Sequence record: SRR2962707_3481
Direction: 5' to 3' (one strand)
Length of the DNA: 20,000 bases
Shown: positions 159 to 20,000 of the stretch, one piece after another
Layout of the letters: each line of letters opens with the position of its first letter
Numbering within the stretch: position 1 is the stretch's first letter
The notes under the pieces: model-generated
What the model was told of the DNA's origin: nothing
Databases searched by the model: none
The model's input: the letters and a program-made list of their open reading frames with translations, nothing else
Position numbers and translations under genes: made by a program

Positions 159-653
159 CTAGCCTACTTTCACTTTATTACCCATTAGGTCTTCATAGAA
201 ATGATGGATATCAAACATCTGCTGTGCGCCAATCTTTTGGCCGGCTTGCGCTGAGAAGTAAAGCGTTGCGGCAATGATTCCGAAGATCGGAATAGCCCAT
301 AGCACCGAGGCATCCAGATCCAAGCTCCACCTTGTCAAACCCCACATCCCGATAAACATGGAGAGCAGGCCCAAAGCAACATAGCTAAAAAAGAATACTG
401 CCCAAACGGTAGGATTCGGCCCATAAAGCCCGCGGATAATCACGGTTTTTTCGTCCTGTTCAAAGGAGAGATGAAGCTGGGGTGACCAAAAGTGCTGTTC
501 ATCCGGGTGAACTTTGATATAGATGTGACCGGGGAGATAATTGTAGATCAAAGTCTTCTCCTCCCTGAGTTTTTCAACAATTCTTTTCTCAAGCTCTTCC
601 TTATTGCCGCTTAATTCCTGGCGGAATCTTGGTCGAATTTTAAAACTGGACAT
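159..653 (-). CDS. Hypothetical membrane protein (soluble N-terminus, two C-terminal TM helices)
   Basis: 164-aa ORF with WSPQLHL and GLYGPNPTVW motifs, then two hydrophobic segments; divergent from the efflux operon. No P-loop, so no support for a GTPase label. Confidence 0.75.
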   Translation of the reverse strand: MSSFKIRPRFRQELSGNKEELEKRIVEKLREEKTLIYNYLPGHIYIKVHPDEQHFWSPQLHLSFEQDEKTVIIRGLYGPNPTVWAVFFFSYVALGLLSMFIGMWGLTRWSLDLDASVLWAIPIFGIIAATLYFSAQAGQKIGAQQMFDIHHFYEDLMGNKVKVG

Positions 654-832: not shown

Positions 833-2146
833 ATGAGACGAAAAGTATTTTTAATAGGGGTATTAGCGTTAGGGGCAATATTTGGATTTGGGCAGGATAC
901 CACGATGGTTTCGAAGGAAGAGGTTCTTTCGAAAGTCAAGGAGGGTAATTACCAGGCAAAGGCCTCCCAAATACAAGCCCAGATGGCAGCATCGGATTAT
1001 CAGCAATCCAATTCATTGTACCTGCCTCAGGTATCAGCTTCCTACACTGCTATTACCACCAATAATCCATTGATGGCATTTGGTTCGAAGCTGAATCAGG
1101 AGATTTTAACCCAAGCAGATTTTAACCCGGCACTGTTAAATGACCCGGACAATGTACAGAACTATGCGACAGAGATCCTTGTGCTGCAGCCACTCTTAAA
1201 TCTCGATGGAGTTTACGGGAGAAATGCTGCAAAAATTCAGAAGGAAGCTTATCAACTAAAAGCAGAAAGAACAACTGAGTATTTGGAGCTGGAGGCGACC
1301 AAAATGTACATGCAGTTGCAGTTGGCGTATGAGGCCGTCACTGTCTTGGAAAAAGCTGTGGCTACATCCGATGAAGCTTTGTCTATGGTTACGGATTATT
1401 ATGAGCAAGGAATGCTGCAGAAAGCAGATTTGCTGGATGTGAAAGTAAGAGCCGGAGAGGTGCAGAATCAATTGAAGTATGCTCAATCGAATGTTCAGAA
1501 TACATCTGATCAGTTGGCCATTCTGATTGGTGAGAAGCCCGGAAACGAGTTGTATAAACCTGTAGAAAGATCACCATCTACTTTCGAAATGTCGGAGATG
1601 ACAATCATACTACCGGAGGGAAGAAAAGACCTGTTGGCTATGGAAAAATCAGTAGAAGGGTATGAAAGCATGCTCAAATCCTCCAGGATGAAATTCATGC
1701 CTAGGATCAATGCATTTGGAAGTTTCCAACTCTACGACAATCAATTCCTGGCTTTCAATGCCTCCGGATATGTTCTGGGTGCAAAGCTTTCCTGGGACTT
1801 GTTCAATGGCTATTCCAACATAGCAAAAACTACCAAAGCAAGGTTGCAGGCAGATAAGGCCAGGGTGGAGCAAGAAGAATATTCAGCTCAGCAACAAGCA
1901 GAACTAAACAAAGCCAACAGGATGCTGATGGATGCACAAAACAAGGTATCTCTGGCAGAATTGGCTTTTGAGCAATCGAGTGAGGCCTATCGGACAAGAA
2001 AAGATCGATTTGAGGAAGGGTTGGAAACGACAACTGACCTGCTTGCTTCTGAAACACAGATGTTCAAGAAAGAGCTGGAATATCGGCAGGCCATTTTCGA
2101 ATACAATTTCACCAGTGCATACCTGGAATTTTTAACAAGACAATAA
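833..2146 (+). CDS. TolC family outer membrane efflux protein
   Basis: 437 aa, signal peptide, two OEP-like repeats (YLPQVS... / FMPRIN...LSWDLFNG; YEQGMLQKADLL / FEEGLETTTDLL), first gene of an OMF-MFP-RND operon. Confidence 0.93.
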   Translation: MRRKVFLIGVLALGAIFGFGQDTTMVSKEEVLSKVKEGNYQAKASQIQAQMAASDYQQSNSLYLPQVSASYTAITTNNPLMAFGSKLNQEILTQADFNPALLNDPDNVQNYATEILVLQPLLNLDGVYGRNAAKIQKEAYQLKAERTTEYLELEATKMYMQLQLAYEAVTVLEKAVATSDEALSMVTDYYEQGMLQKADLLDVKVRAGEVQNQLKYAQSNVQNTSDQLAILIGEKPGNELYKPVERSPSTFEMSEMTIILPEGRKDLLAMEKSVEGYESMLKSSRMKFMPRINAFGSFQLYDNQFLAFNASGYVLGAKLSWDLFNGYSNIAKTTKARLQADKARVEQEEYSAQQQAELNKANRMLMDAQNKVSLAELAFEQSSEAYRTRKDRFEEGLETTTDLLASETQMFKKELEYRQAIFEYNFTSAYLEFLTRQ

Positions 2147-2168
2147 CAACAAGACATTTCAAAATATC

Positions 2169-3242
2169 ATGAAAACGAAATACATATTAAGTACAGCTAT
2201 TCTGATTGCAGTATTGGCAAGCTGTGGTTCTGCGGATGAAAAAAACATCACGGAGCTACCGCCGGTGGCAGTGAAAGTTGGAACCGCAATGGTTAAAGAA
2301 GGAGTGGAGACCATCACCGCAAGCGGAAAAATTGAGGCAGGAAATAGCGCCAATGTCAGTACCCGAATGATGGGACACGTGACTAGCTTAAAAGTGCAAT
2401 CTGGCGACAGGGTAGCCAAAGGTGATTTGTTGGTGGCAATTACCAATGCCGACCTGGTAGCAAAAAGAGCCCAGGTGGATGCTTCCATAGCACAAGCTCA
2501 AAGTGGATATGAAAATGCAAAAAAGGACTTGGAGCGATTCAAGGTATTGTTCGAAAAGGGAAGTGCTTCTGAGAAGGAGTTGGAAAACATGACTACCCGT
2601 TTCGAAATGGCCCAGGCAGGATTGGATGCAGCCAATCAGATGAAAAGAGAGGTCAACGCTCAGTTTGAGTACACCAATATCAGGGCACCATTCGGCGGTG
2701 TAGTGGCCAACACCTTTGTGAAAGTAGGGGACATGGCCAATCCGGGCATGCCACTGGTCACTGTGGAAGGGACTGGCGGATATCAGGCAACCGTGTTGGT
2801 AGCAGAATCAGATATTTCAAAAATAAAAGAAGGAGCCAAAGCATCTCTGATTGTGAAGTCCAATGGCACTTCACTAGGTGGTAAAGTAGTTGAGGTAAGT
2901 CCTTCAGCTAAGAATACAGGCGGTCAGTTTATTGTGAAGATTGATATCGATGAATCAAAAGAAGTACTACCGGGAATGTTTGTCAATGCGAACATTGATG
3001 CTTCCTCTCAAAAAGTAGCCCGGACATCACCAATGGTGAAAGAAACCGCCTTGATCAACAATGGTCAGCTCACCGGACTTTATGCCCTGAGCGATGCGAA
3101 CACAGCTATTCTACGATGGGTACGAACCGGTAGAATGACGAATGGGAGTGTAGAGATTCTCTCCGGGATCAGCGAAGGTGAAAAGTACATTGAAGTGGCC
3201 GAAGGCAAACTTTTCAATGGCGCCAAAGTGACGGTACGATAA
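2169..3242 (+). CDS. Efflux RND transporter periplasmic adaptor (MFP), lipoprotein
   Basis: Lipobox LASC; lipoyl half-motifs GDRVAKGDLL and IRAPFGGVV...GDMANPG; coiled-coil hairpin; VEILSGISEGE C-terminus. Confidence 0.93.
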   Translation: MKTKYILSTAILIAVLASCGSADEKNITELPPVAVKVGTAMVKEGVETITASGKIEAGNSANVSTRMMGHVTSLKVQSGDRVAKGDLLVAITNADLVAKRAQVDASIAQAQSGYENAKKDLERFKVLFEKGSASEKELENMTTRFEMAQAGLDAANQMKREVNAQFEYTNIRAPFGGVVANTFVKVGDMANPGMPLVTVEGTGGYQATVLVAESDISKIKEGAKASLIVKSNGTSLGGKVVEVSPSAKNTGGQFIVKIDIDESKEVLPGMFVNANIDASSQKVARTSPMVKETALINNGQLTGLYALSDANTAILRWVRTGRMTNGSVEILSGISEGEKYIEVAEGKLFNGAKVTVR

Positions 3243-3270
3243 GACTGGGATATAAATAAACGATAAGAAA

Positions 3271-6200
3271 ATGCAAGAAGGAATATCAGGTAAAGTAGCC
3301 CATTTTTTCATCCACTCGAAGTTGACTGTCCTCTTGATGGTTGCGCTAATGATCATCGGGGTTTACAGCTCATTCCTGATCCCACGAGAGGAGGAACCAC
3401 AGATCGTCGTGCCGATGGCAGACGTGATGGTGGGTTATCCGGGTGCTTCACCTACTGAAGTAGAAAGCCGTGTGGTAAAGCCGCTGGAGAAAATCATCTC
3501 CAATATTAAAGGGGTGGAACATGTGCACAGCATGGCCATGAATGGAGTAGCTGTGATGGTAGTTCAATTCTATGTTGGCGAAGACACAGAGAGATCATAT
3601 GTCAAGTTGTACGACGAAATTTTGAAACATGAGGACATGTTTCCGGAGGCGGTTTACGATCCGGTTGTTAAAACACGCTCCATTGATGACGTGCCCATGC
3701 TGGGTCTTACCCTGTGGAGCCAGTCCTATGACGATTTCCAGCTACGTCAGTTAGCCGAAGAAGTCACTTCAGAGATAGAAAAAGTCAAAGATGTAGCGAT
3801 TACCAAGCAGATTGGTGGCAGACCAAGAGAGTTGAGAATTGTTGTTGATAAAGACAAGATGGCTGAAAACCAGGTGGATGTGTTGAGCATCATGCAAATG
3901 GTAAAAGCCAGCAACAGCAGCTCACAATCGGGCAAGTTTGTCAGCTCGGACGAGGAGTTTCTTTTAACGACCGGACAATTTCTCTCATCTGCTAAAGATG
4001 TGGAAGGAATTGTAGTAGGTGTGAACAAAGGAATGCCGGTGTATCTACACCAGGTAGCAGAAGTGCTGGATGGCCCTTCAAAACCTAAGGATTATGTAGC
4101 CTTTGGGTATGGAAAAGCCAATGCGGCTTATGCAGAGAATCCTTCATCCTATCCGGCTGTGACCATTTCCATTGCCAAGGTCAAAGGAGCTGACGCAATG
4201 AAAGTGTCGGATAAGATCCTCGAAAAGGTGGAAAACCTTCGGGAGACACTGATTCCGGATGATGTGAAGTTGGAAGTGACACGAAACTATGGTGAAACCG
4301 CATCTCACAAAGTAGGAGAGTTGTTATTACACCTTGGCGTAGCGATCATCGCTGTGACAGTGCTTGTGATGATGGCAATGGGTTGGAGAGGAGGCCTGGT
4401 GGTTTTCCTTTCGGTTCCATTGACGTTTGCCCTGACTCTCTTCAGTTACTACATGTTGGGGTATACCCTAAACAGAATTACGCTTTTTGCTCTGGTGTTC
4501 GTGGTGGGTATTGTGGTGGATGATAGCATCATCATTGCTGAGAACATGCACCGTCACTTTAAGTCCAAGAGACTTCCGTTTGCACAGGCAGCAATATATG
4601 CCATCAATGAGGTAGGAAACCCAACGATCCTGGCGACTTTCACGGTCATTGCAGCGATTCTGCCTATGGCTTTTGTATCTGGTATGATGGGGCCATACAT
4701 GAGTCCTATGCCTATTGGCGCATCCATCGCGATGATGCTATCCTTGTTTGTGGCCTTGACGGTGACACCATATTTGGGATATCATTTCCTGAGAGAGAAA
4801 GGAAAGAAAGGTGAAGAGAATGAAGGCCATGGAGAGCATGGATCTGGCTGGATTCACAGGGTGTATGACAAAATCGAAAAGCCACTACTGGAAAGCGGTA
4901 CAAAAAGATGGGTGATGTTGGGCATAACCGTGGTTTTACTCTTCGGTTCCATGATCATGTTCTTCACCAAGTCAGTAGCTGTGAAGATGCTGCCATTCGA
5001 TAACAAGAATGAATTTCAGGTGGTCATAGACATGCCGGAAGGTACCACTTTGGAGCGAACCTCGGCTGTGACAACTGAGATTGCACAATACCTTGCGACA
5101 GTACCAGAGGTGGTCGACTATCAGACTTATGCCGGAACCTCAGCGCCAATCACCTTCAATGGGCTGGTGCGTCACTATGACCTACGCGGGGGAAGCAACA
5201 TGGCGGATATTCAGGTCAACTTGCTTCACAAGGAAGATCGTGATGATGACAGTCACACCATCGCTACACGGGTACGACCTGAAGTACAGCGGATCGCCAG
5301 ACGATACAATGCAAATGTCAAAATAGTGGAGGTACCACCAGGCCCTCCTGTGCTATCCACGCTTGTTGCCGAAGTATATGGTCCTGACTACAACGAGCAA
5401 ATCAAAGTAGCCAGACAGGTAAAGGACATCCTTGAAAATACACAGGATGTGGTGGATGTAGATTGGTATGTGGAAGCCGGGCAGACTGAATATCGATTGG
5501 AAGTGGATCGTGAAAAGGCCATGATGTATGGAATTGTACCGCAGCAGGTAGTTGGCAACCTTACTTACCTGATTGGTAGTCATGCCATTTCGACTTTATA
5601 CGATGAAACCTCCAACAATCCGGTGGATATCGTCATGGCTTTGGAGGACAAAGAACAAGCAGGCATCAGGTCGGTTCAAAACCTGAAAGTAAAAGGAATG
5701 ACCGGTCATATGGTGCCGGTAAATGATATCGTGCAGGTGAAGAAGGACACCTTGCAATCAACGATATATCGAAAAGATCAGAAACGGGTAGTGTACGTGC
5801 TGGCTGACATGGCCGGAGCGTTGGAAAGTCCGGCTTATGCCATCCTCGGGATGACAGAAAAGCTGGAACAAATGCAGCTACCCAAAGGATACAGTGTTAG
5901 TGAGTTGTATATGAACCAGCCATCTGATGAGTCAGATTTCACAGTGAAGTGGGACGGTGAGTGGCAGATCACTCTGGAAGTGTTTCGTGATTTAGGTGGC
6001 GCTTTCCTCGTGGTGATCATCGTGATCTACATGCTCATCGTTGGCTGGTTTCAAAACTTCAAAACACCGATTGTAATGATGCTTGCGATTCCGCTCTCAC
6101 TGATCGGGATTGTTTTGGGGCACTGGTTGCTGGGGGCGTTCTTCACAGCCACTTCATTCATCGGCATGATTGCCCTGGCGGGTGTCATGGTAAGAAACTC

Positions 6201-6474
6201 AGTGTTGCTGATCGACTTTATTGAGATCAGATTGAAGGATGGTGTGGATCTGAAAACAGCCATTATTGAAGCAGGAGCAGTGAGGACCACCCCAATTTTA
6301 TTGACAACCGGTGCAGTAGTGATCGGTGCATCCATTATCCTGTTCGATCCAATCTTCCAGGGACTCGCGATCTCGCTGGTTGCAGGAGCCATTGTATCGA
6401 CCATGCTCACGCTTGTGGTGGTGCCACTCATCTACTACATGACGGAAAAGAAAAAATGGGAGCAGGCCAATTAA
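3271..6474 (+). CDS. Efflux RND transporter permease subunit (AcrB/CzcA superfamily)
   Basis: 1067 aa with the two-repeat RND layout; TM4 GIVVDDSIIIAEN, TM10 GVMVRNSVLLIDF, TM11 RTTPILLT. Confidence 0.96.
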   Translation: MQEGISGKVAHFFIHSKLTVLLMVALMIIGVYSSFLIPREEEPQIVVPMADVMVGYPGASPTEVESRVVKPLEKIISNIKGVEHVHSMAMNGVAVMVVQFYVGEDTERSYVKLYDEILKHEDMFPEAVYDPVVKTRSIDDVPMLGLTLWSQSYDDFQLRQLAEEVTSEIEKVKDVAITKQIGGRPRELRIVVDKDKMAENQVDVLSIMQMVKASNSSSQSGKFVSSDEEFLLTTGQFLSSAKDVEGIVVGVNKGMPVYLHQVAEVLDGPSKPKDYVAFGYGKANAAYAENPSSYPAVTISIAKVKGADAMKVSDKILEKVENLRETLIPDDVKLEVTRNYGETASHKVGELLLHLGVAIIAVTVLVMMAMGWRGGLVVFLSVPLTFALTLFSYYMLGYTLNRITLFALVFVVGIVVDDSIIIAENMHRHFKSKRLPFAQAAIYAINEVGNPTILATFTVIAAILPMAFVSGMMGPYMSPMPIGASIAMMLSLFVALTVTPYLGYHFLREKGKKGEENEGHGEHGSGWIHRVYDKIEKPLLESGTKRWVMLGITVVLLFGSMIMFFTKSVAVKMLPFDNKNEFQVVIDMPEGTTLERTSAVTTEIAQYLATVPEVVDYQTYAGTSAPITFNGLVRHYDLRGGSNMADIQVNLLHKEDRDDDSHTIATRVRPEVQRIARRYNANVKIVEVPPGPPVLSTLVAEVYGPDYNEQIKVARQVKDILENTQDVVDVDWYVEAGQTEYRLEVDREKAMMYGIVPQQVVGNLTYLIGSHAISTLYDETSNNPVDIVMALEDKEQAGIRSVQNLKVKGMTGHMVPVNDIVQVKKDTLQSTIYRKDQKRVVYVLADMAGALESPAYAILGMTEKLEQMQLPKGYSVSELYMNQPSDESDFTVKWDGEWQITLEVFRDLGGAFLVVIIVIYMLIVGWFQNFKTPIVMMLAIPLSLIGIVLGHWLLGAFFTATSFIGMIALAGVMVRNSVLLIDFIEIRLKDGVDLKTAIIEAGAVRTTPILLTTGAVVIGASIILFDPIFQGLAISLVAGAIVSTMLTLVVVPLIYYMTEKKKWEQAN

Positions 6475-7633: not shown

Positions 7634-10468
7634 ATGAGAATTATGAACCGTATTAAGCTCCTTAGCTTACTATTGGTGCTCTCGTTTTTCTTCTCTAATG
7701 CACAGGAGAGGGACATGTCGGGAGACATTGAAAAACCTTTGACCAGTACCATTCCGTCCGATCCGGATGTGAGAATCGGTAAACTAAAGAACGGACTTAC
7801 CTATTACATCAGGAAAAATGCCAAGCCGGAAGACAAAATTGAATTCCGATTGGTCGTGAACGCAGGTTCCATCCTTGAGAACGAAGACCAGCAAGGACTG
7901 GCTCACTTTGTTGAGCACATGGCCTTCAATGGAAGTGAAAACTTCAAGAAAAATGAATTGGTCAATTACCTTCAATCCATTGGGGTGGAATTTGGAGCTG
8001 ACCTGAATGCATACACCAGTTTCGATGAGACTGTTTACATGCTTCCTATTCCAACGGGAGATCCAGCGGTTTTGGATAAAGGCATGAAAGTACTCGAAGA
8101 TTGGGCAAGCGGACTTGAGTTTTCAGAGGAAGAAATTGACAAAGAACGTGGCGTGGTGATAGAAGAGTGGAGATTGGGCCAGGGTGCAAGCCAGCGGATG
8201 AGGGACAAGTGGTTCCCGGTCATGTTCAAGGATTCACGATATGCTGAAAGATTACCAATTGGAAAGAAAGAGGTAATTGAGAACGCCAGCTACGAGACCA
8301 TCAGAAATTTCTACAATGACTGGTATCGTCCTAATCTTATGGCGGTGATTGCAGTAGGTGATTTGGATCCGGATGAAATGGAAAAGCAAATCCAGCAACG
8401 GTTCGGGAAATTGAAAAATCCTAAGAGTCCCCGGGAGCGAACGGAGTTTGACGTGCCGAGCCATCGGGAAACCTATGTAGCTATTGAGCAAGACAAGGAA
8501 GCTCCTTTCACCCAGGTTCAATTAGTATACAAGCAGGATGCTGAAGATGAGTCCAAGACATTGGCAGATTACAGAAGAGAGCTGACCTACAACTTATTCA
8601 ATAGCATGCTGAATCAGCGATTGAATGAACTTCGCCAGTCTGCAGAGCCCCCATTCGTATTTGCAAGCACAGGATATGGCAACATGGTGAGAACCAAGCA
8701 AACATATTCTTCCTTCGCTATGGTGGGTGAAGATGGCATCATGAAAGGTCTACAGAACCTTGTAAGAGAAAATGAACGTGTGAAGCGTTACGGATTCACT
8801 GCAGGTGAGTTGGAGCGAGCTAAGAAGCAGACGCTCAACCGAATGGAGCAGCAAATGAAAGAGCAGGACAAAACAGAGAGCAGAAGATTGGCTTCCCAGT
8901 ATGTCTCTTCTTTCCTTGATGAATCCACTATTACCTCTCCGGAGTTTTCATATGCTTTTGCTAAAAAGCAGTTTGAAGGTGTGACAGTTGATGAAATTAA
9001 TAAGTATGCACCCATGTGGATCAAAGAAAGTGACAGGGTAATCGTGATTACTGGTCCGGAAAGAGAAAATGCAGATGTGACCAAAGATGCTGTATTGGAA
9101 ATGCTGTCAATGGTGGAAGCTGAGGAAATCGAAGCATACGAAGATGAAATGTCCGGTTCGGAGTTGATGGCAACCATGCCTAAGAAAGGCTCAATAAAAT
9201 CAGAAAAAGGATTGGACAAAGTGGAAGCTACCGAATTGACACTTTCCAATGGCATGACGGTGGTACTTAAACCAACAGACTATCAGAACGATGAAGTATT
9301 GATGAGTGCCTTCAGCCATGGCGGTCATTGTCTATATGGTGATGATGTATATCACAGTGCATCTTACGCCGACAATGTCATTGGTGAAAGTGGTGTGGCA
9401 GACTTCTCAAATACAGATTTGCAGAAACTATTTGCTGGAAAAACGGTGAATGTTCGTCCGTTTATTGGTACCTACTCTGAAGGTTTTAATGGAAATGCAG
9501 CTCCTAAGGATCTGGAGACCATGATGCAGATGATCAATTTGTATTTCACAGCACCAAGAAAGGATGACCAGGCATTTGCCTCTTATAAGATGAGAAATAC
9601 CATGCTATTCCAGAATCTTATGTCGAATCCAAACTTCTTTTTCCAGAATGAGATGATCAAGATCATGAGCCAGGACCATCCGCGAGCTGGAGGATTCCCA
9701 ACGGCAGAGGAGCTGGAGAAAATCGACTTGGATAAGGCGTTTGAGATATTTGGAGAGCGATTTGCCGATCCAGCCAATTTCACTTTCTTCTTTGTTGGAA
9801 ACTTTGAGATAGACAAAATCAAGCCTTTGTTGGAGACGTACCTAGCCAGCATTCCTTCCATAGATAGAGAAGAAACATGGAAAGATCTTGGCATTCGTCC
9901 ACCTAAAGGAAAGCTTGAAAAAGTGATCAACAAAGGAACCGATCCTAAGAGTCAGGTATCGATCAATTATCGTGGAGAAACTGACTACAGCGTTGAAGAG
10001 AGTTACATCCTTACCAGCCTTGGAGAAGTGGTAACCAACAGACTGATTGACATTATTCGTGAGGAGAAAAGCGGTGTGTATGGTGTAGGTGCGAGAGGTA
10101 GTTTGAACGAACGACCTTACGAGAGCTACAGTTTTTCCGTTTCGTTCCCATGCGGCCCTGAGAATGTAGATGAGTTGAAGCAGGCGGTATATGATGAGAT
10201 CGAGCGAATCAAGAAGGAAGGCGTTTCAGAGGAAGATCTAAATGAAGTGAAAGAAGCTCAGCGTATCGATCGTAAAGAGAGCCTGGAGCAAAACAGGTAC
10301 TGGATGAACCAACTTTCTGGGTACTATACTGCCGATCGTGATTTGAGCACGTTCTTTGATTACGAAGATCGTATCGAAGCATTGACAACTGAGGATTTGA
10401 AAAAAGCAGCTCAGAAATATCTGGTGGAAAGCAATCTCATTGAGATCGTATTGATGCCGGAAGAATAA
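7634..10468 (+). CDS. M16 family zinc metallopeptidase (PqqL-like, exported)
   Basis: 944 aa, signal peptide, inverzincin motif HFVEH in GLAHFVEHMAFNGS, NAYTSFDETVY, ERGVVIEEWR; second half lacks HxxEH and carries IREEKSGVYG. Confidence 0.95.
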   Translation: MRIMNRIKLLSLLLVLSFFFSNAQERDMSGDIEKPLTSTIPSDPDVRIGKLKNGLTYYIRKNAKPEDKIEFRLVVNAGSILENEDQQGLAHFVEHMAFNGSENFKKNELVNYLQSIGVEFGADLNAYTSFDETVYMLPIPTGDPAVLDKGMKVLEDWASGLEFSEEEIDKERGVVIEEWRLGQGASQRMRDKWFPVMFKDSRYAERLPIGKKEVIENASYETIRNFYNDWYRPNLMAVIAVGDLDPDEMEKQIQQRFGKLKNPKSPRERTEFDVPSHRETYVAIEQDKEAPFTQVQLVYKQDAEDESKTLADYRRELTYNLFNSMLNQRLNELRQSAEPPFVFASTGYGNMVRTKQTYSSFAMVGEDGIMKGLQNLVRENERVKRYGFTAGELERAKKQTLNRMEQQMKEQDKTESRRLASQYVSSFLDESTITSPEFSYAFAKKQFEGVTVDEINKYAPMWIKESDRVIVITGPERENADVTKDAVLEMLSMVEAEEIEAYEDEMSGSELMATMPKKGSIKSEKGLDKVEATELTLSNGMTVVLKPTDYQNDEVLMSAFSHGGHCLYGDDVYHSASYADNVIGESGVADFSNTDLQKLFAGKTVNVRPFIGTYSEGFNGNAAPKDLETMMQMINLYFTAPRKDDQAFASYKMRNTMLFQNLMSNPNFFFQNEMIKIMSQDHPRAGGFPTAEELEKIDLDKAFEIFGERFADPANFTFFFVGNFEIDKIKPLLETYLASIPSIDREETWKDLGIRPPKGKLEKVINKGTDPKSQVSINYRGETDYSVEESYILTSLGEVVTNRLIDIIREEKSGVYGVGARGSLNERPYESYSFSVSFPCGPENVDELKQAVYDEIERIKKEGVSEEDLNEVKEAQRIDRKESLEQNRYWMNQLSGYYTADRDLSTFFDYEDRIEALTTEDLKKAAQKYLVESNLIEIVLMPEE

Positions 10469-10521: not shown

Positions 10522-13158
10522 CTATTCATATCTCAATGTTTTCACGGGGTTACTTCTGGCTGCTTTAAGAGATTGTGTGCCTACCGCAATTAAAACCATT
10601 AGTAGAGAGAATCCACCTGCGATCAGAAATACTACAGCTCCTACATTGATACGGTATGCAAAGTCTTGTAACCATTCGTTGGTTAGGTAGTAGCCAATCG
10701 GAACCGAAAGGAGAAAAGCCACACCTATTAGCAGTAAAAATCCCTTGCTAATTAGCATGAAAATGGAGCGAATGGAAGCACCCAACACTTTACGAACACC
10801 TATTTCTTTGGATCGCTTCACGACAGCAAAAGAAGCCAGACCAAACAATCCCGAACAGGCAATAAGTATCGCCAGAATGGTGAAATACCGAGTAGCACTC
10901 GCTAGGCGTTCTTCTTTCACATACTGATCCTGGATTTTTTCATCCAAAAAAGTGAACTCAAAAGGCCAGTCAGGGATGACCCGATCCCAGACCGTCTCAA
11001 TTTGATCCAGGGTTGATAGTAAGTTGGTAGTTCCTGAAAGCTTCAGGCAGACTTCACTGCCTACACTGGATCGTGGCATCCGAAAGACACTCGGTTGCAC
11101 AGGATTATAAAGGCTCTCAAAATTGGCATCTGCCAGCACCCCTAACACTTCAATTTCTTCAGGTTCACTAGCGCCACCAGGCAGAAAGCTTAATCGTTTG
11201 CCCAGGCTCTCTTCCAATGACCATCCAAGGGCATTGGCCGCAGATTCATTGATTAGGATACCTGATGAGACATCAGATTCTATTTCAGTATTGAAGTCTC
11301 TGCCTGCAACCACTTCCAGATCAAACATATCTGTAAACCCTTCACCTATCCATTTGATACCCAGCGAGTAAGTGGATTCATCATCACTTCCCACTCGTTT
11401 GAATGTGTTGCTGTATGAAGAAGTACCTGCCACATAGCCACGATGCAGGTCAACCACACTTGGCAAAGCTTTCATTTCATTTTCAAATACTTCGTATTGA
11501 CTTTTTGAAAGGTTTCTGGCATGCCGGATGATCAACATTTGCTCCTTGTCAAACCCCAGCTCTTTACCTTTTAGGAAATCCAATTGTTGATTGACCACAA
11601 TGATTCCAACGAACAAGAGATTACACACCAGAAACTGACCAATGATCATCACCTTACCGAACCGTTGCTTAGACTTCAACAAGCCAAATCGCTGAATAGC
11701 ATTGATCTTTATCACTGCCATGGATGGCCTCAGACCCGCGATCAACGCAATCATTAATGCTGTCAGTAGCGCTAAGGCGATAAATGGTAATTCATTCCAA
11801 CCGATGGATAATGTCGAGTCCATAAATTCATTGAAGTAGGGGAGTGAGACAAAGGCAAGAATGACTGCCAGGGTGCAGGCCATTATGACCAATGCAAATG
11901 CTTCAGTCATAAACTGAGAAACAAGATGACTCTTTCCTGCTCCCATCACTTTTCTTAAGCCCACTTCTTTCAATCGCTCATTTGATTGAGCGGAGGTGAG
12001 ATTGACGAAATTGACACAGGCAATGGACAAGATCAGAATGGCTACTAGTCCAAATCCGTAGAGTTGTGCCATGTTGCCATTCGCCTTTGCTTCCCCTGAT
12101 TTATCAGAATGCAAATGGATATTGAAAAGTGGCTGCACCTCTAGCGAAAATCCATCTTGTCCGTCGACATTAAAATATGATGAAGCAATGGTTTGTAATT
12201 TTCTCTGGAAATCTTTTAAATCTGTGCCCGGAGCAAGTTGAGCGTATGTCCACGCAGCAGCCCAGTTCCAGTCTTTTTCCAGGTCATAGGTGTATTCGCC
12301 CCAACCCATCCATCTCTGCCGTTGCAACTCTATTGGGACGAGGATATCGAATGCAAGGTGTGAGTTGTCCGGAACGTCCTTGATTACACCAGTTACGATC
12401 AGGTCATCCTCGTTTTTGTACCGCATAATTTCGCCCATAGGATCAGACTCTCCAAAGTACTTAGCCACCACCTTCTGTGTAAGGATAATGCTTCTTGGAT
12501 CAGAAAGAGCGGTAGTTGGATCCCCGGAAACAAATTCAAAATCAAATACCTTAAACACATCTGTTTCAGCGAAGTAGATTCCCTCTTCAGTGAATTTATG
12601 ATCACCATATTCAAGCAATGGTGTATCGCCACCCCAGTTATAGAACCTGGCTGTTTTGACTATCTCCGGGTACTCTTCCTCCAATACTTTCTTCATCGGA
12701 AAAGGTAGTTTGGCACCCAGACGCGTCGCACTAGGTGTTTCCAACCTATAGGTTAAGCGCACAATTTGATCACCATTGTTGTGAAAGCGATCGAAGGAAA
12801 GTTCATGTTTGATGAATAGCATGATCAGAATAACTGCCGACAACCCAATGGCCAGTCCTAAAACATTGATGGTTGAGTAGGTGAGGTGTCGGCGCATGAG
12901 TCGAAAGCCGACTTTTAGATGATTAAAAAACATAATAGTGGAGTTTGAAAATGGATTAATTCTTTCTTTTCGAATAACAAAAAGTTGCATGAAGGAGATC
13001 ACATTGAAGAAATAGAGAAAGTTGGCCCTGAGGGCATTCATCCGTTCGCGCCTTTCATTGTAAATAGCCAATAAATCACCCTCAATTGCTTCGCAAAGGT
13101 CTTCCGAGCAAAACCATCTAAACAATCTTATCATCCATTTAGGTGGTGAGTGTTTCAT
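10522..13158 (-). CDS. Duplicated MacB/FtsX-type ABC transporter permease with N-terminal permease-prefix domain (ADOP-like)
   Basis: 878 aa; prefix PPKW...EAIEGDL; two FtsX repeats (ACVNFVNL...RLKEVGLRKVMGA and RSKEIGVRKVLGAS); C-terminus NPVKTLRYE. Confidence 0.93.
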   Translation of the reverse strand: MKHSPPKWMIRLFRWFCSEDLCEAIEGDLLAIYNERRERMNALRANFLYFFNVISFMQLFVIRKERINPFSNSTIMFFNHLKVGFRLMRRHLTYSTINVLGLAIGLSAVILIMLFIKHELSFDRFHNNGDQIVRLTYRLETPSATRLGAKLPFPMKKVLEEEYPEIVKTARFYNWGGDTPLLEYGDHKFTEEGIYFAETDVFKVFDFEFVSGDPTTALSDPRSIILTQKVVAKYFGESDPMGEIMRYKNEDDLIVTGVIKDVPDNSHLAFDILVPIELQRQRWMGWGEYTYDLEKDWNWAAAWTYAQLAPGTDLKDFQRKLQTIASSYFNVDGQDGFSLEVQPLFNIHLHSDKSGEAKANGNMAQLYGFGLVAILILSIACVNFVNLTSAQSNERLKEVGLRKVMGAGKSHLVSQFMTEAFALVIMACTLAVILAFVSLPYFNEFMDSTLSIGWNELPFIALALLTALMIALIAGLRPSMAVIKINAIQRFGLLKSKQRFGKVMIIGQFLVCNLLFVGIIVVNQQLDFLKGKELGFDKEQMLIIRHARNLSKSQYEVFENEMKALPSVVDLHRGYVAGTSSYSNTFKRVGSDDESTYSLGIKWIGEGFTDMFDLEVVAGRDFNTEIESDVSSGILINESAANALGWSLEESLGKRLSFLPGGASEPEEIEVLGVLADANFESLYNPVQPSVFRMPRSSVGSEVCLKLSGTTNLLSTLDQIETVWDRVIPDWPFEFTFLDEKIQDQYVKEERLASATRYFTILAILIACSGLFGLASFAVVKRSKEIGVRKVLGASIRSIFMLISKGFLLLIGVAFLLSVPIGYYLTNEWLQDFAYRINVGAVVFLIAGGFSLLMVLIAVGTQSLKAARSNPVKTLRYE

Positions 13159-13493
13159 GAGCTACCTCCTTCCCAAATAAATGCCGGAACCGCCTCCCAC
13201 ATTTTATTCCTTAACTCGCGAGATTCACCGAGTGCCTTTTTTCCCGAGGCTGTCATTTGGTAAAGTCGTTTCCTTCTGCCGCCTCGTTCTGAAGTGGCGC
13301 CACCCATGTGCGAAGTGAGGAATCCCTTTTTTTCCAAGCGAACCAATACTTTATGCACAGCACTGATCATTGGTTTCCGGTCGCTTTGATTTTCAAGCTC
13401 TTTCTGGATGGCCAATCCATGTGCATCGTCTGTTAGAATACCAACAGTTAGTAATACCAGTTCTTCAAATTCACCAAGATGTGTGCCCTTCAT
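13155..13493 (-). CDS. PadR family transcriptional regulator
   Basis: LGEFEELVLL...RLEKKGFL...ERGGRRKRLYQMTASG winged-helix pattern; 4-nt ATGA overlap with the permease start. Confidence 0.92.
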   Translation of the reverse strand: MKGTHLGEFEELVLLTVGILTDDAHGLAIQKELENQSDRKPMISAVHKVLVRLEKKGFLTSHMGGATSERGGRRKRLYQMTASGKKALGESRELRNKMWEAVPAFIWEGGSS

Positions 13494-18509: not shown

Positions 18510-18878
18510 ATGACACCTCGGGAATTAATCAAAAAATGGGTCGGGCGCTTCAATGATGCTGATATCGATGGGTTAATGGCACTCTATGCTGAAGATGCTG
18601 TTAATCATCAGGTGGTTATGGATCCACTCAACGGAAAAGAAGCCATCCGAAGGATGTTTGAAATTGAATTTGGCAGAGCAGAAATGGTTTGCGAAATCGA
18701 AAACATTTTAGAGGAGGGTGAATGGGGTATTTTGGAGTGGAAAGATCCTTTGGGCCTCAGAGGATGTGGATTCTTTCATGTGCAACATGATCTCATCCAA
18801 TTTCAGCGGGGCTATTTTGATCAGCTTTCCTTTTTCAAAATACAAGGTCTTCCTGTGCCTGATGACTACCTAAAGTAG
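18510..18878 (+). CDS. SnoaL-like / NTF2 family protein
   Basis: 122 aa; FNDADIDGLMALYAEDA...GKEAIRRMF...GCGFFHV...FQRGYFD pattern. Confidence 0.9.
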   Translation: MTPRELIKKWVGRFNDADIDGLMALYAEDAVNHQVVMDPLNGKEAIRRMFEIEFGRAEMVCEIENILEEGEWGILEWKDPLGLRGCGFFHVQHDLIQFQRGYFDQLSFFKIQGLPVPDDYLK

Positions 18879-18992
18879 GGATTTACGATTGGAGTAATTT
18901 CTGTACTTCTTGTCTGCATGGTAAAATAGCACCGTGATTCCCGCTAGTGTCGCATAGAACAGTAGAACGATTAGGATGAATGAAATGGTCAT
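18870..18992 (-). CDS. Small single-TM peptide, paralog A (40 aa)
   Basis: Minus strand reads MTISFILIVLLFYATLAGITVLFYHADKKYRNYSNRKSLL*; hydrophobic helix plus basic tail; 16/32 ungapped identity to paralog B. Confidence 0.7.
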   Translation of the reverse strand: MTISFILIVLLFYATLAGITVLFYHADKKYRNYSNRKSLL

Positions 18993-19191
18993 TGTGATAG
19001 TGTTTAGGGTGTATACTATTAAACCCCTTGAGCTTTAAATAGTTATAAAAATTAGCTGAATAATCATATTTATCGATGAATAACCAAATAGGGAAGATCA
19101 GTTCAAACCTGTTATAGAGGAAGATTAAAGGTTCATTAAGATTTCAGGGATCCTGTTTGGATCGGTTGAAATTCGCTAACTTGGTTACAAA

Positions 19192-19707
19192 ATGAAACAG
19201 CTACTGATCACCACACTGTTGCTCGTTTCCTTCACTTCTATTGGTCAGAGGAAACTGAGTATCGTTGAAGTCATTGATAAACTCAGGTATAAATGGGATG
19301 AGTCCGCCATTGGGTTGAAATCCTACCAGGGCATCCAGGAGTTTTGTCTAAATCAGGAATATCAGAAAGAAACCATTGAATTGCTGGATGCGATTCATCA
19401 TTGGGATACCACGTTGTACTACATCGTTCAGGAGAAATTTGATACCCATCAGGACAAAGAAGCGGAATTGACTTTGAAGGACATTGAGCAGTTGGAATCA
19501 GAGTATTCAACCGCCAATTTCAAGGAGTTCATTACCAATGAGTGCAATGAACTAAAGATCATTCATGAATCCTTTGATAAGGAAACTGTTCGCAAATACG
19601 AAAAGGAGATCCGAAATTTTGAGAAAGAGTTATACAAATACATCAATAGTATAACCTTCCGGATCGATATCATTGATGAGCACATCCACCATTTAAACTT
19701 CGACTGA
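19192..19707 (+). CDS. Hypothetical exported alpha-helical protein with His motifs and a Cys pair
   Basis: 171 aa, signal peptide, amphipathic helical pattern, IHHWD and EHIHHL motifs, two Cys. Confidence 0.8.
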   Translation: MKQLLITTLLLVSFTSIGQRKLSIVEVIDKLRYKWDESAIGLKSYQGIQEFCLNQEYQKETIELLDAIHHWDTTLYYIVQEKFDTHQDKEAELTLKDIEQLESEYSTANFKEFITNECNELKIIHESFDKETVRKYEKEIRNFEKELYKYINSITFRIDIIDEHIHHLNFD

Positions 19708-19711
19708 TGTC

Positions 19712-19810
19712 TTAGTTTGCGATGCTTTTGCTGACATAGTAAAAAAGCATGGTGAATAATCCCATGAACGCATAGAATAATGCGACTATAATAATAAAAG
19801 AGCTGGCCAT
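19712..19810 (-). CDS. Small single-TM peptide, paralog B (32 aa)
   Basis: Minus strand reads MASSFIIIVALFYAFMGLFTMLFYYVSKSIAN*; shares SFIxIVxLFYA...TxLFY...K...N and the leader ACTATCAC with paralog A. Confidence 0.7.
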   Translation of the reverse strand: MASSFIIIVALFYAFMGLFTMLFYYVSKSIAN

Positions 19811-19840
19811 GTGATAGTTTTTTTAATGTGGTGATTGCTA

Positions 19841-19999
19841 TCAGACGTTGGCCTGTTGCATGTTTTGATTATTCATTCGATTCTCGATGAATAGCTCGCA
19901 TTTCTCCTTTGTACCCATGTAAAGGATCTTAAACTTCTTCGTAACCATCCATTGTCCATCTGTCGTTTTCTCCAGATTCAGATAAGGATTTGGTTTACT
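19841..19999 (-). CDS. Hypothetical protein, C-terminal fragment (5' end outside window)
   Basis: Frame open to the window edge reads SKPNPYLNLEKTTDGQWMVTKKFKILYMGTKEKCELFIENRMNNQNMQQANV*; stop lies 30 nt upstream of paralog B. Confidence 0.55.
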   Translation of the reverse strand, partial: SKPNPYLNLEKTTDGQWMVTKKFKILYMGTKEKCELFIENRMNNQNMQQANV

Positions 20000-20000
20000 T

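What the first reader, a model, noticed from the sequence alone, without database searches (positions are those of the whole stretch)
18870..19846. Two unannotated paralogous small transmembrane peptide genes with a shared 5' leader
Seen: minus-strand ORFs 18870..18992 (MTISFILIVLLFYATLAGITVLFYHADKKYRNYSNRKSLL) and 19712..19810 (MASSFIIIVALFYAFMGLFTMLFYYVSKSIAN) align without gaps at 16/32 identity. Several identical residues use different codons (e.g. S tca/tct, F ttc/ttt, V gtt/gtc, L ctg/tta), as expected for selection on protein. The leaders also align: GTTTAATAG-N4-CACC...ACTATCACA-ATG versus GTCTGATAG-N4-CACC...ACTATCAC-ATG. The two genes bracket the 171-aa exported protein gene. Inference: a small membrane-protein family that I do not recognise, possibly an accessory subunit or regulator of a membrane complex, or a type I toxin-like peptide (single TM plus basic tail).
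Basis: partly seen in the sequence, partly recalled or inferred. Interest (0 to 1): 0.8.

Follow-up and report, generated by a model that had tools for sequence, protein, structure and literature searches.

The report
Small single-helix membrane protein family
Two tiny neighbouring genes encode old copies of a previously unnamed one-helix membrane protein that a few related marine-type Bacteroidota also keep, so the genes are real but their job is still unknown.

Summary
The minus-strand ORFs 18870..18992 (40 aa) and 19712..19810 (32 aa) are 16/32 identical without gaps (BLASTP E 6e-9). Ten of the 16 shared residues use different codons. Synonymous sites are saturated (pS 0.77) while pN is 0.32 (Fisher p 4e-4).

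A profile of the pair found 3 short proteins among 1.84 billion (E 2e-9 to 3e-6). Six-frame searches found one copy each in 5 of 42 genomes of the closest genus (E 6e-11 to 2e-17). They found no credible hit in 401 Bacteroidota or 201 family-level genomes. Nothing reached a curated cut-off or significance in Pfam, NCBIfam, PHROGs, PADLOC or PDB sequences.

All members are one helix with invariant F12, Y13, T20, F23 and K28 and a basic tail. There are two locus types:
- A stand-alone gene behind a conserved AT-rich upstream block (pep1 and four genomes).
- A gene 23-30 nt behind a 63-aa soluble-protein gene (pep2 and one genome).

My best reading is a lineage-restricted small membrane protein that packs against a larger membrane protein or itself. 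A type I toxin-like role is not excluded but lacks RNA support. This is a new member of a known kind, of moderate interest.

The parts
18870..18992 (-). pep1, 40-aa single-helix membrane protein gene (stop codon included); stand-alone ('type A') copy
   Evidence: ORF. Profile hit at 82 bits in the local six-frame search. AF2 model is one helix over residues 2-37, pLDDT 84. Mean hydropathy of the first 19-residue windows is 2.0-2.4.
18993..19090 (-). pep1 upstream region: ACTATCACA directly before the ATG (18993-19001), GTTTAATAG (19016-19024) and the conserved AT-rich block TTATTCATCGATAAATATGATTATTCAGCTAATTTTTATAAC (19042-19083); probable promoter/operator and unstructured leader
   Evidence: Aligns with the upstream regions of the peptide genes in L113, L114 and L115 (A6). 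Local alignment score: w1 vs L114 is 44 against a shuffle maximum of 33 (0 of 300 shuffles reach it); w1 vs L140 p 0.003; w1 vs L115 p 0.037; w1 vs L113 not significant. No consensus RNA structure on either strand.
19712..19810 (-). pep2, 32-aa paralogue (stop codon included); 'type B' copy behind the 63-aa-family gene; short, weakly charged tail
   Evidence: ORF. Profile hit at 65 bits. Keeps V9, F12, Y13, T20, F23, Y24 and K28 but has S27, S29 and I30 instead of D, K and Y (A5).
19811..19840 (-). 30-nt spacer between the stop of the upstream ORF and the pep2 ATG (TAG CAATCACC ACATTAAAAAAACTATCAC)
   Evidence: The orthologous spacer in L112 also ends AAAAAAACTATCAC before its ATG.
19841..20000 (-). 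3' part (52 codons plus stop) of a small soluble-protein gene ('up63' family); runs off the window end
   Evidence: Open frame. 67% identical over 45 aa to the 63-aa ORF L112:10117-10308(-), which lies directly upstream of the peptide gene in genome G637 (tblastn E 2e-18).
19192..19707 (+). 171-aa gene with a signal-peptide-like N-terminus (judged by eye); bracketed by pep1 (divergent, 199 nt away) and pep2 (convergent, 4 nt between stop codons). A neighbour, not shown to be a functional partner.
   Evidence: No Pfam or NCBIfam family reaches its cut-off. Homologues in 42 of 42 genomes of the genus, 1-6 hits each.
18510..18878 (+). SnoaL-like 122-aa gene, convergent with pep1; the 3' ends overlap by 9 nt (18870-18878). 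A neighbour.
   Evidence: PF12680 SnoaL_2, E 1.1e-12.

Best explanation
pep1 and pep2 are two anciently diverged paralogues of a real, lineage-restricted small membrane protein of 30-44 aa.

Shown:
- The reading frame is preserved in seven DNA copies from six genomes.
- Synonymous sites are saturated while amino-acid change is limited.
- The protein is predicted to be one continuous helix. It has a hydrophobic stretch at about residues 4-25, followed by a conserved (D/E)KKY motif and a basic tail.

Inferred:
- Topology is N-terminus outside and tail in the cytoplasm, by the positive-inside rule.
- The most conserved residues (V9, Y13, G17, T20, Y24, D27) lie on one face of the helix. The peptide therefore most likely works by helix-helix packing in the membrane, as an accessory or modulating subunit of a larger membrane protein, or by self-association. 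The partner is unknown.

Expression (inferred):
- pep1-type genes are independent transcription units. An intrinsic terminator of the upstream gene is followed by a roughly 80-nt AT-rich block that is better conserved than the coding sequence. I read it as a promoter/operator plus an unstructured leader.
- pep2-type genes are read together with a 63-aa soluble-protein gene 23-30 nt upstream.

My odds: a real translated membrane protein, about 0.9. The accessory/modulator mechanism specifically, about 0.45.
For: Family and selection:
- Pairwise E is 6e-9.
- A profile of the pair against 1.84 billion representatives gave 3 hits at E <= 0.001, all 30-37 aa and aligned from the N-terminus.
- Six-frame profile hits occur in 5 of 42 genomes of the closest genus, at E 6e-11 to 2e-17.
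- All 21 pairs among the 7 DNA copies show pS 0.42-0.97 against pN 0.24-0.41.

Conserved residues and fold:
- F12, Y13, T20, F23 and K28 are invariant in 9 of 9 sequences. V9 is 8/8, Y24 8/9, G17 7/9 and D27 7/9.
- Conservation over columns 4-27 has a 100-degree helical periodicity, permutation p 0.048.
- The AF2 model is one helix over residues 2-37, pLDDT 84.
- Net tail charge is +3 to +6 in six of the eight complete members and +1 in pep2 and L112.

Independent unit:
- Terminator-like hairpins with a T-run lie upstream of the block in L114 and L115. One is visible in L140 (by eye).
- Local alignment scores among the upstream 130 nt of L113, L114, L115 and L140 are 83-129, against shuffle maxima of 35-44.
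- The block occurs exactly once in each of G631-G634, with 0 hits for the reversed control pattern.

Arguments against a toxin-type leader:
- No consensus RNA structure on either strand.
- The pep1 mRNA is less stable than shuffles, z +1.54.

Conserved pairing with the 63-aa gene in the window and in G637.
Against: - No partner is identified. The genes flanking the peptide differ between loci: SnoaL-like and the 171-aa gene here, fatty-acid hydroxylase in L114 and L115, GntP permease in L113 and L116, dioxygenase-like in L112. Known accessory peptides usually sit in their partner's operon (established knowledge; review PMC12648545, passages seen).
- The distribution is patchy, 5 of 42 genomes in the genus.
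- The helical-face statistic is weak (p 0.048) and comes from only nine related sequences.
- No expression data bear on the peptides. One metatranscriptome run holds relatives' contigs over parts of the window, but the pieces over the peptide genes were not listed.
- No Bacteroidota-type promoter motif could be placed convincingly in the block (my reading).
Confidence: 0.5

Rival explanations
1. Type I toxin-like membrane peptide. The peptide would oligomerise and depolarise the membrane when made in quantity. Its synthesis would normally be held down by an antisense RNA. Here that RNA could be the 3' end of the convergent neighbour's transcript, which must run into the peptide gene because the stop codons overlap or lie within 14 nt of each other.
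For: - It meets the protein-level search criteria of Fozo et al. 2010 (PMC2887945, passages read): under 70 aa, one hydrophobic helix, and a C-terminal cluster of charged and aromatic residues (DKKY plus K/R).
- It is duplicated locally in the window, with similarity extending beyond the coding region.
- The distribution is narrow and patchy: 5 of 42, 0 of 201 and 0 of 401 credible hits. This resembles type I families (PMC5367252, passages).
- Six of seven loci are tail-to-tail with a neighbour, from an 11-nt overlap to a 14-nt gap. This is my reading of coordinates.
- The pep2 mRNA can pair GGCCA in the upstream ORF with the start-codon region (MFE z -1.85, 8 of 200 shuffles fold as well).
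Against: - No conserved secondary structure in the 5' region on either strand in four orthologous loci: 0 and 4 predicted pairs, none covarying.
- The pep1 mRNA is less structured than shuffles.
- The convergent partner gene differs between loci, so there is no dedicated antitoxin gene.
- pep2 and its G637 orthologue sit 23-30 nt behind another ORF, which is unusual for type I toxins.
- Five of six genomes have one copy.
- No match above cut-off to any toxin family in Pfam, and none at E <= 1 in PADLOC.
- No RNA data.
Confidence: 0.17
2. Membrane anchor or partner of the 63-aa soluble protein family. The peptide's basic cytoplasmic tail would bind an 'up63'-type protein and hold it at the membrane. 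Stand-alone peptide genes would use up63 paralogues encoded elsewhere in the genome.
For: - The gene order up63 then peptide, with a 23-30 nt spacer, is kept between the window and G637. This holds although the peptides are only 13/28 identical and their synonymous sites are saturated.
- All five peptide-bearing genomes carry 2-4 up63-family hits.
Against: - Only 1 of the 30 up63-family ORFs examined in 20 loci has the peptide downstream.
- The up63 family is in 38 of 42 genomes but the peptide in only 5 of 42.
- Four other loci (five counting pep1 in the window) have the peptide without up63 nearby (tblastn).
Confidence: 0.1
3. pep2 is a decaying copy. Only pep1-type genes would be functional, and pep2 would be a relic that still has an open frame.
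For: - pep2 has the shortest and least charged tail, net +1.
- It has lost D27, K29 and Y30.
- Its pN to the other members is at the high end, 0.31-0.41.
Against: - It keeps all seven residues that are invariant or nearly invariant in the helix, and an intact frame, although its synonymous sites are saturated against every other copy.
- Its G637 counterpart also has a short tail (30 aa, net +1) and is intact.
Confidence: 0.1

Closest known systems
Small single-pass regulatory or accessory membrane proteins of Proteobacteria (MgrB, AcrZ, KdpF, CydX class; review PMC12648545, passages seen)
   Same: Size of 30-50 aa, one transmembrane helix, short polar ends, often missed by annotation. Conservation is concentrated on the helix, which suggests packing against another membrane protein.
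   Different: No sequence relationship: no Pfam or NCBIfam hit above cut-off. No conserved partner gene or operon, as the flanking genes vary between loci. Restricted to a few species of one Cytophagales-like genus.
Membrane-acting type I toxins (Hok, Ldr/Fst, TisB, Ibs, ShoB, ZorO; Fozo et al. 2010, PMC2887945)
   Same: Short hydrophobic helix with a charged and aromatic C-terminal cluster. Local duplication with similarity beyond the ORF. Narrow, patchy distribution.
   Different: No antitoxin RNA is identified. There is no conserved RNA structure around the 5' end. One copy lies in an apparent operon behind another ORF. The phylum differs: 'Bacteroidetes' occurs 0 times in the main text of PMC2887945 and of PMC5367252.
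PspB (PF06667) and phrog_2429 (bacteriocin production/immunity): the best weak profile hits
   Same: A single hydrophobic helix followed by a polar stretch.
   Different: PspB scores E 0.054 and 14 bits against a cut-off of 25.6, for pep2 only. phrog_2429 has a best E of 0.056 in 2 of 5 members. Both are at chance level for hydrophobic peptides, so this is not membership.

Membership tests
Type I toxin-antitoxin (membrane toxin type) | Toxin under about 60-70 aa with one predicted transmembrane helix | tested here: met
   30-44 aa. One helix in the AF2 model. Hydropathy 2.0-2.4 over the first 19-residue windows.
Type I toxin-antitoxin (membrane toxin type) | C-terminal cluster of polar, charged or aromatic residues (criterion of PMC2887945) | tested here: met
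   (D/E)KKY followed by a K/R-rich tail in 7 of 9 members; weaker in pep2 and L112.
Type I toxin-antitoxin (membrane toxin type) | [quoted passage not shown] | tested here: inconclusive
   No Rfam family in the window. No conserved structure on either strand of the 5' region. Convergent neighbours could supply antisense transcripts, but no strand-resolved RNA data were available (one search used contigs only).
Type I toxin-antitoxin (membrane toxin type) | Structured 5' UTR that hides the translation start in the primary transcript | tested here: not met
   pep1 mRNA z +1.54, with 189 of 200 shuffles folding at least as well. The four-locus alignment has zero consensus pairs. Only pep2 shows a modest fold over its start (z -1.85).
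Type I toxin-antitoxin (membrane toxin type) | Growth arrest or membrane damage on overexpression | not testable with these tools
   Needs a bench experiment.
Type I toxin-antitoxin (membrane toxin type) | Sequence membership in a described toxin family | tested here: not met
   No hit above cut-off in Pfam or NCBIfam, none at E <= 1 in PADLOC, and only chance-level hits in PHROGs.
Accessory or regulatory small membrane proteins (functional class, not one homologous family) | Single-pass small membrane protein conserved under purifying selection | tested here: met
Accessory or regulatory small membrane proteins (functional class, not one homologous family) | Conserved linkage (operon or neighbourhood) with the membrane protein it serves | tested here: not met
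   The immediate neighbours differ among the seven loci. Sensor kinases lie within 0.2-2 kb in L112, L113, L114 and L115 but not in the window part that is visible.
Accessory or regulatory small membrane proteins (functional class, not one homologous family) | Physical binding to a partner membrane protein | not testable with these tools
   No candidate partner is defined.
FixQ/CcoQ-type small oxidase subunits (considered from recall of a helix followed by a KK-aromatic motif) | Match to the family profile | tested here: not met
   The Pfam scans at E <= 1 of six family members list no such family. No oxidase genes were seen among the ORFs of the seven loci.

The most novel reading that the evidence does not exclude
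The locus could be the first membrane-toxin type I toxin-antitoxin-like system in Bacteroidota, with an unusual antitoxin. The antitoxin would be not a dedicated small RNA but the run-through 3' end of whichever gene converges on the peptide gene (stop codons overlapping or up to 14 nt apart in six of seven loci). Expression of the neighbour would then silence the peptide.
Probability: 0.12. Interest if true: 0.7.

Novelty: new member of a known kind. Interest (0 to 1): 0.4.

Why it matters
Small membrane proteins are under-annotated, and almost all studied examples come from Proteobacteria and Firmicutes. This is a clean, selection-supported example from a Cytophagales-like Bacteroidota lineage, with three useful properties:
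- One complete-genome species (G637) is among the six genomes that carry it, and 37 of 42 congeneric genomes searched show no copy. If cultured strains exist, that gives natural presence/absence comparisons.
- It has two distinct expression contexts: its own conserved upstream block, or an operon with a 63-aa protein.
- A conserved polar face on the helix can be mutated.

It would be a tractable entry point for asking what such peptides do in Bacteroidota, where translation initiation and promoters differ from the model organisms. On present evidence it is one more family of unknown function, not a new principle.

Tried and rejected
- Own-genome search: no genome is held for the window.
- Word-index protein search with pep1 alone: no candidate. 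With the 5-sequence profile it returned only the same 3 proteins.
- Genome-contig scan with the 363-aa neighbour: no relative. The scan with the RND pump gave 80 loci, but only the efflux operon is shared and there are no peptide hits in them.
- Metagenome-contig scan with the peptide profile: 590 pattern matches, none confirmed. The scan with the 171-aa protein gave one 2.3-kb contig without a peptide gene.
- Viral contigs and plasmid searches: nothing.
- Earlier-findings look-ups: empty.
- Protein atlas: only unnamed clusters at 0.80-0.85, below the lead threshold.
- Sequencing runs: one metatranscriptome run (coded X1, Logan contigs, word share 0.15). Of 61 contigs laid, 4 were 99% or more alike. 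The two bins over the peptide genes have summed depth 0.52 and 1.39, but the pieces there were not listed and contigs give no strand or ends. This gives no evidence on expression.
- Complex prediction of the G637 63-aa protein with its peptide: 'no answer', which is neither support nor evidence against.
- Sigma-70-type promoter scan around the window locus: 4 sites against 4.5 expected. No convincing Bacteroidota -33/-7 motif by eye.
- Remnant of an up63 gene upstream of pep1: the open frame there shows no protein similarity to up52 (BLASTP, no hits). The only DNA similarity between the two locus types is a shared 13-15-mer (p 0.013-0.03).
- Regulon idea: the type-A block occurs only at the peptide locus in G631-G634 and not in G637.
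- M16 peptidase as a relatedness marker: it led to the right genus (78% in G569). It is missing at E <= 1e-100 from the five peptide-bearing genomes, so it says nothing about which species is closest.
Full report
**1. The observation**

The minus strand of the window holds the two ORFs exactly as described. pep1 is at 18870..18992 (40 aa) and pep2 at 19712..19810 (32 aa). They align without gaps at 16/32 identity, with BLASTP E 6e-9 for the single comparison.

At the DNA level 56/96 positions agree, and 10 of the 16 identical residues use different codons. By Nei-Gojobori counting, 16.2 of 21 synonymous sites differ (pS 0.77, saturated) against 23.8 of 75 non-synonymous sites (pN 0.32). Fisher's test on rounded counts gives p 4e-4. 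The other two frames of the same alignment contain stops and give 9 and 8 identities. The similarity is therefore carried by the protein, not the DNA.

The leader similarity is also present:
- GTTTAATAG-N4-CACC...ACTATCACA-ATG before pep1.
- GTCTGATAG-N4-CACC...ACTATCAC-ATG before pep2.
- A further shared 13-mer, TATTCATCGA[T/G]AA, lies 83-90 nt upstream of each start. These are the only 2 matches in the window against 0.18 expected.

In copy 2, the 'GTC TGA' of the leader is the end of an upstream ORF that runs off the window at 20000 (frames).

**2. Is it a family?**

No curated library recognises either peptide.
- Pfam's best hits are PspB (E 0.054, 14 bits against a cut-off of 25.6) and SLC3A2_N (E 0.15).
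- NCBIfam gives nothing for pep1 or pep2, and only hits far below cut-off for four relatives.
- PHROGs' best is E 0.028.
- PADLOC gives nothing.
- The PDB sequence search's best is E 0.053, to a helix of a sterol transporter.
- Rfam finds nothing in the window.

A profile of the two peptides was scored against 1.84 billion representative proteins. It returned 3 hits at E <= 0.001 (2.3e-9, 2.7e-8 and 3.0e-6). All three are 30-37 aa long and aligned from the N-terminus. None carries a name. One comes from an NCBI genome with a 3,918,733-nt contig.

No genome is held for the window, so I located relatives in steps:
- The M16 peptidase at 7634..10468 is 40-48% identical to most Bacteroidota sampled.
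- It is 58-61% identical (two segments) to a MAG labelled Roseivirgaceae.

Searching the 42 genomes of G569's genus in six frames with the profile gave credible hits in 5 of 42: G631, G632, G633, G634 and G637, at E 6e-11 to 2e-17, one copy each. It also gave three hits at E 0.013-0.044, in two further genomes and a second place in G631; all lie inside longer frames or contain a stop, and I disregard them. G637 holds the 3.9-Mb contig, so it is the source of the 30-aa protein.

The same profile found only chance-level hits elsewhere:
- 7 of 401 phylum-wide genomes, E 0.004-0.009.
- 5 of 201 family-level genomes, E 0.001-0.004.

All of these lie inside long frames or contain stops.

The G634 copy is split over two contigs. 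With the two metagenome-derived proteins, the family has nine members (alignment A5).

**3. Anatomy of the protein**

- Lengths are 30-44 aa.
- F12, Y13, T20, F23 and K28 are invariant (9/9). V9 is 8/8, Y24 8/9, G17 7/9 and D27 7/9.
- AlphaFold2 with the family alignment gives one helix over residues 2-37, mean pLDDT 84.
- The hydrophobic stretch covers roughly residues 4-25. It is followed by (D/E)KKY and a K/R-rich tail. Net tail charge is +3 to +6 in six of the eight complete members and +1 in pep2 and the G637 protein.
- By the positive-inside rule (established knowledge), the tail should be cytoplasmic and the three or four N-terminal residues outside.
- Conservation along columns 4-27 is periodic at 100 degrees per residue (permutation p 0.048). 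V9, Y13, T20 and D27 lie within 30 degrees of the conserved direction, and G17, F23 and Y24 within 70 degrees. This weak statistic is consistent with one helix face being used for packing.

**4. Selection**

For all 21 pairs among the seven DNA copies, pS is 0.42-0.97 and pN 0.24-0.41. dS is saturated in 15 pairs, and dN/dS is 0.21-0.71 in the other six. The peptides evolve quickly, but the frame and the helix face have been kept over a divergence that has randomised silent sites.

**5. Two kinds of locus**

*Type B (pep2 and G637).* The peptide gene follows, after 23-30 nt, a small ORF. In G637 this ORF is 63 aa (L112:10117-10308, minus strand), and it is 67% identical over 45 aa to the partial ORF at the window end. 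The upstream 130 nt of the two loci align strongly, with a score of 86 against a shuffle maximum of 27.

*Type A (pep1, G631, G632, G633, G634).* There is no such ORF nearby. Instead:
- The upstream gene ends in a terminator-like hairpin with a T-run in L114 and L115, and visibly in L140.
- About 25-45 nt later comes an AT-rich block of roughly 80 nt.
- A variable AT-rich stretch then leads to the ATG (A6).

Among the four genomes the upstream 130 nt score 83-129, against shuffle maxima of 35-44. pep1's upstream region matches L114 (44 against a maximum of 33) and L140 (p 0.003), matches L115 weakly (p 0.037), and does not match L113. The block is thus at least as well conserved as the coding sequence, although silent sites are saturated.

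The block occurs once per genome in G631-G634 and not in G637, so it is not a widespread operator. RNAalifold finds no consensus structure on either strand, with 0 and 4 pairs and none covarying. The pep1 mRNA is less stable than shuffles (z +1.54). I therefore read the block as DNA-level signal (promoter/operator) plus an unstructured leader. I could not place a convincing promoter motif.

pep1 shares a 13-15-mer and the ACTATCAC box with the type B loci. This may reflect common origin or gene conversion within this genome. The open frame upstream of pep1 shows no protein similarity to the 63-aa family.

**6. Neighbourhood**

The peptide genes lie in a loosely syntenic region. A homologue of the 171-aa protein (64-69% identical) lies 2.5-8 kb away in L112, L113, L114 and L116.

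The immediate neighbours differ:
- SnoaL-like and the 171-aa gene in the window.
- Fatty-acid hydroxylase in L114 and L115.
- GntP permease in L113 and L116.
- A dioxygenase-like gene in L112.

In six of seven loci the peptide gene is tail-to-tail with its neighbour, between an 11-nt overlap and a 14-nt gap. This is my reading of the coordinates. Sensor kinases lie within about 0.2-2 kb in four loci, but such genes are common in these genomes.

One metagenome contig with a 69%-identical 171-aa homologue has no peptide gene in its 2.3 kb. The 171-aa family itself is multi-copy, in 42 of 42 genomes with 1-6 hits each. The bracketing seen in the window is therefore a local arrangement, not a conserved module.

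**7. The 63-aa family**

It occurs in 38 of 42 genomes of the genus, with 1-7 hits each and often in tandem. G25, W27, V29, Y37, G39, K43 and C44 are invariant (A9). It has no Pfam or NCBIfam match.

The predicted fold is three strands plus a helix, pLDDT 74.8. It has no significant structural neighbour; the best is 3bid_A at E 0.6 and TM 0.41. Of the 30 ORFs of this family examined in 20 loci, only the G637 one has the peptide gene behind it.

**8. Mechanism**

Shown:
- A conserved, selected, single-helix hydrophobic protein with a basic tail.
- Two expression contexts.
- A narrow and patchy distribution.

Inferred: membrane insertion with the N-terminus out and the tail in, and action through helix packing. 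I favour an accessory or modulating role on a larger membrane protein, or self-association (about 0.45). My reasons:
- The constraint sits on one helix face.
- The gene has a conserved, apparently regulated upstream region.
- Single copies have been kept at a syntenic site for a long time.
- The RNA features expected of type I toxins are missing.

The type I toxin reading (about 0.17) is kept alive by:
- The protein-level criteria of Fozo et al. 2010 (PMC2887945, passages read).
- The local duplication.
- The patchy distribution.
- The convergent overlaps that could give antisense transcripts.

A role as membrane partner of the 63-aa protein (about 0.1) rests only on the conserved gene order in two genomes.

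**9. Comparison and novelty**

In kind, the family belongs with bacterial small membrane proteins (review PMC12648545, passages seen). It is not a member of any described family by the profile tests run here.

Two literature searches surfaced no paper on such a peptide in Bacteroidota: 12 of 122 papers listed, two of which I then opened; 12 of 1,064 listed. 'Bacteroidetes' occurs 0 times in the main text of the two type I survey papers read. Supplementary tables of those papers and of the global small-ORF catalogue (PMC11364881, seen only in the search listing) could not be opened. They might list the family as an unnamed cluster.

**Verdict:** real, a new member of a known kind, function open, moderate interest.

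Noticed in passing
window 19841-20000 (-); L112:10117-10308 (-); loci L117-L136: The ORF upstream of pep2 belongs to an unnamed family of 51-63-aa soluble proteins. G, W, V, Y, G, K and C are invariant within a WMVKKGFSILYIGSKEKCE-like core. The family is found in 38 of 42 genomes of the genus, with 1-7 hits each and often in tandem arrays. The predicted fold is three strands plus a helix (pLDDT 74.8). There is no significant structural or profile match.
   Followed up: partly
window 19192-19707 (+): The 171-aa protein with a signal-peptide-like start has no Pfam or NCBIfam family. It is a multi-copy family present in 42 of 42 genomes of the genus, with 1-6 hits each.
   Followed up: partly
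window 833-6474 (+): This is a three-gene efflux operon: outer-membrane factor, HlyD-type adaptor and AcrB-type pump. Its pump is 76-82% identical to loci in records labelled Flavobacterium, Chitinophagaceae, Sphingobacterium, Lentimicrobium and Cyclobacteriaceae. The nearby M16 peptidase is only 40-48% identical to most of the phylum. The operon looks horizontally spread.
   Followed up: no
window 7634-10468 (+): The M16 peptidase gene is 78% identical to G569. It has no match at E <= 1e-100 in the five peptide-bearing genomes of the same genus, so it appears to be an accessory gene.
   Followed up: no
L119, L130, L133, L135 (downstream of the MKFVKT-type paralogues of the 63-aa family): Short hydrophobic ORF-like strings sharing LLLY(S/L)CLI(F/Y) recur 28-107 nt downstream of one paralogue type in four loci. 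This could be a conserved nucleotide element or another tiny ORF.
   Followed up: no
window 159-653 (-) and L114:17663-18157 (-): A 164-aa ORF at the far end of the window is 69.5% identical to an ORF about 7.5 kb beyond the peptide gene in L114. This suggests that the roughly 18 kb between it and the peptide genes in the window (efflux operon, peptidase, MacB/PadR pair and others) is inserted or rearranged relative to that genome.
   Followed up: no
window 10522-13493 (-): A PadR-family regulator gene overlaps the start of an 878-aa MacB/FtsX-type permease gene. One Maribacter locus (L057) holds three tandem homologues of the permease.
   Followed up: no
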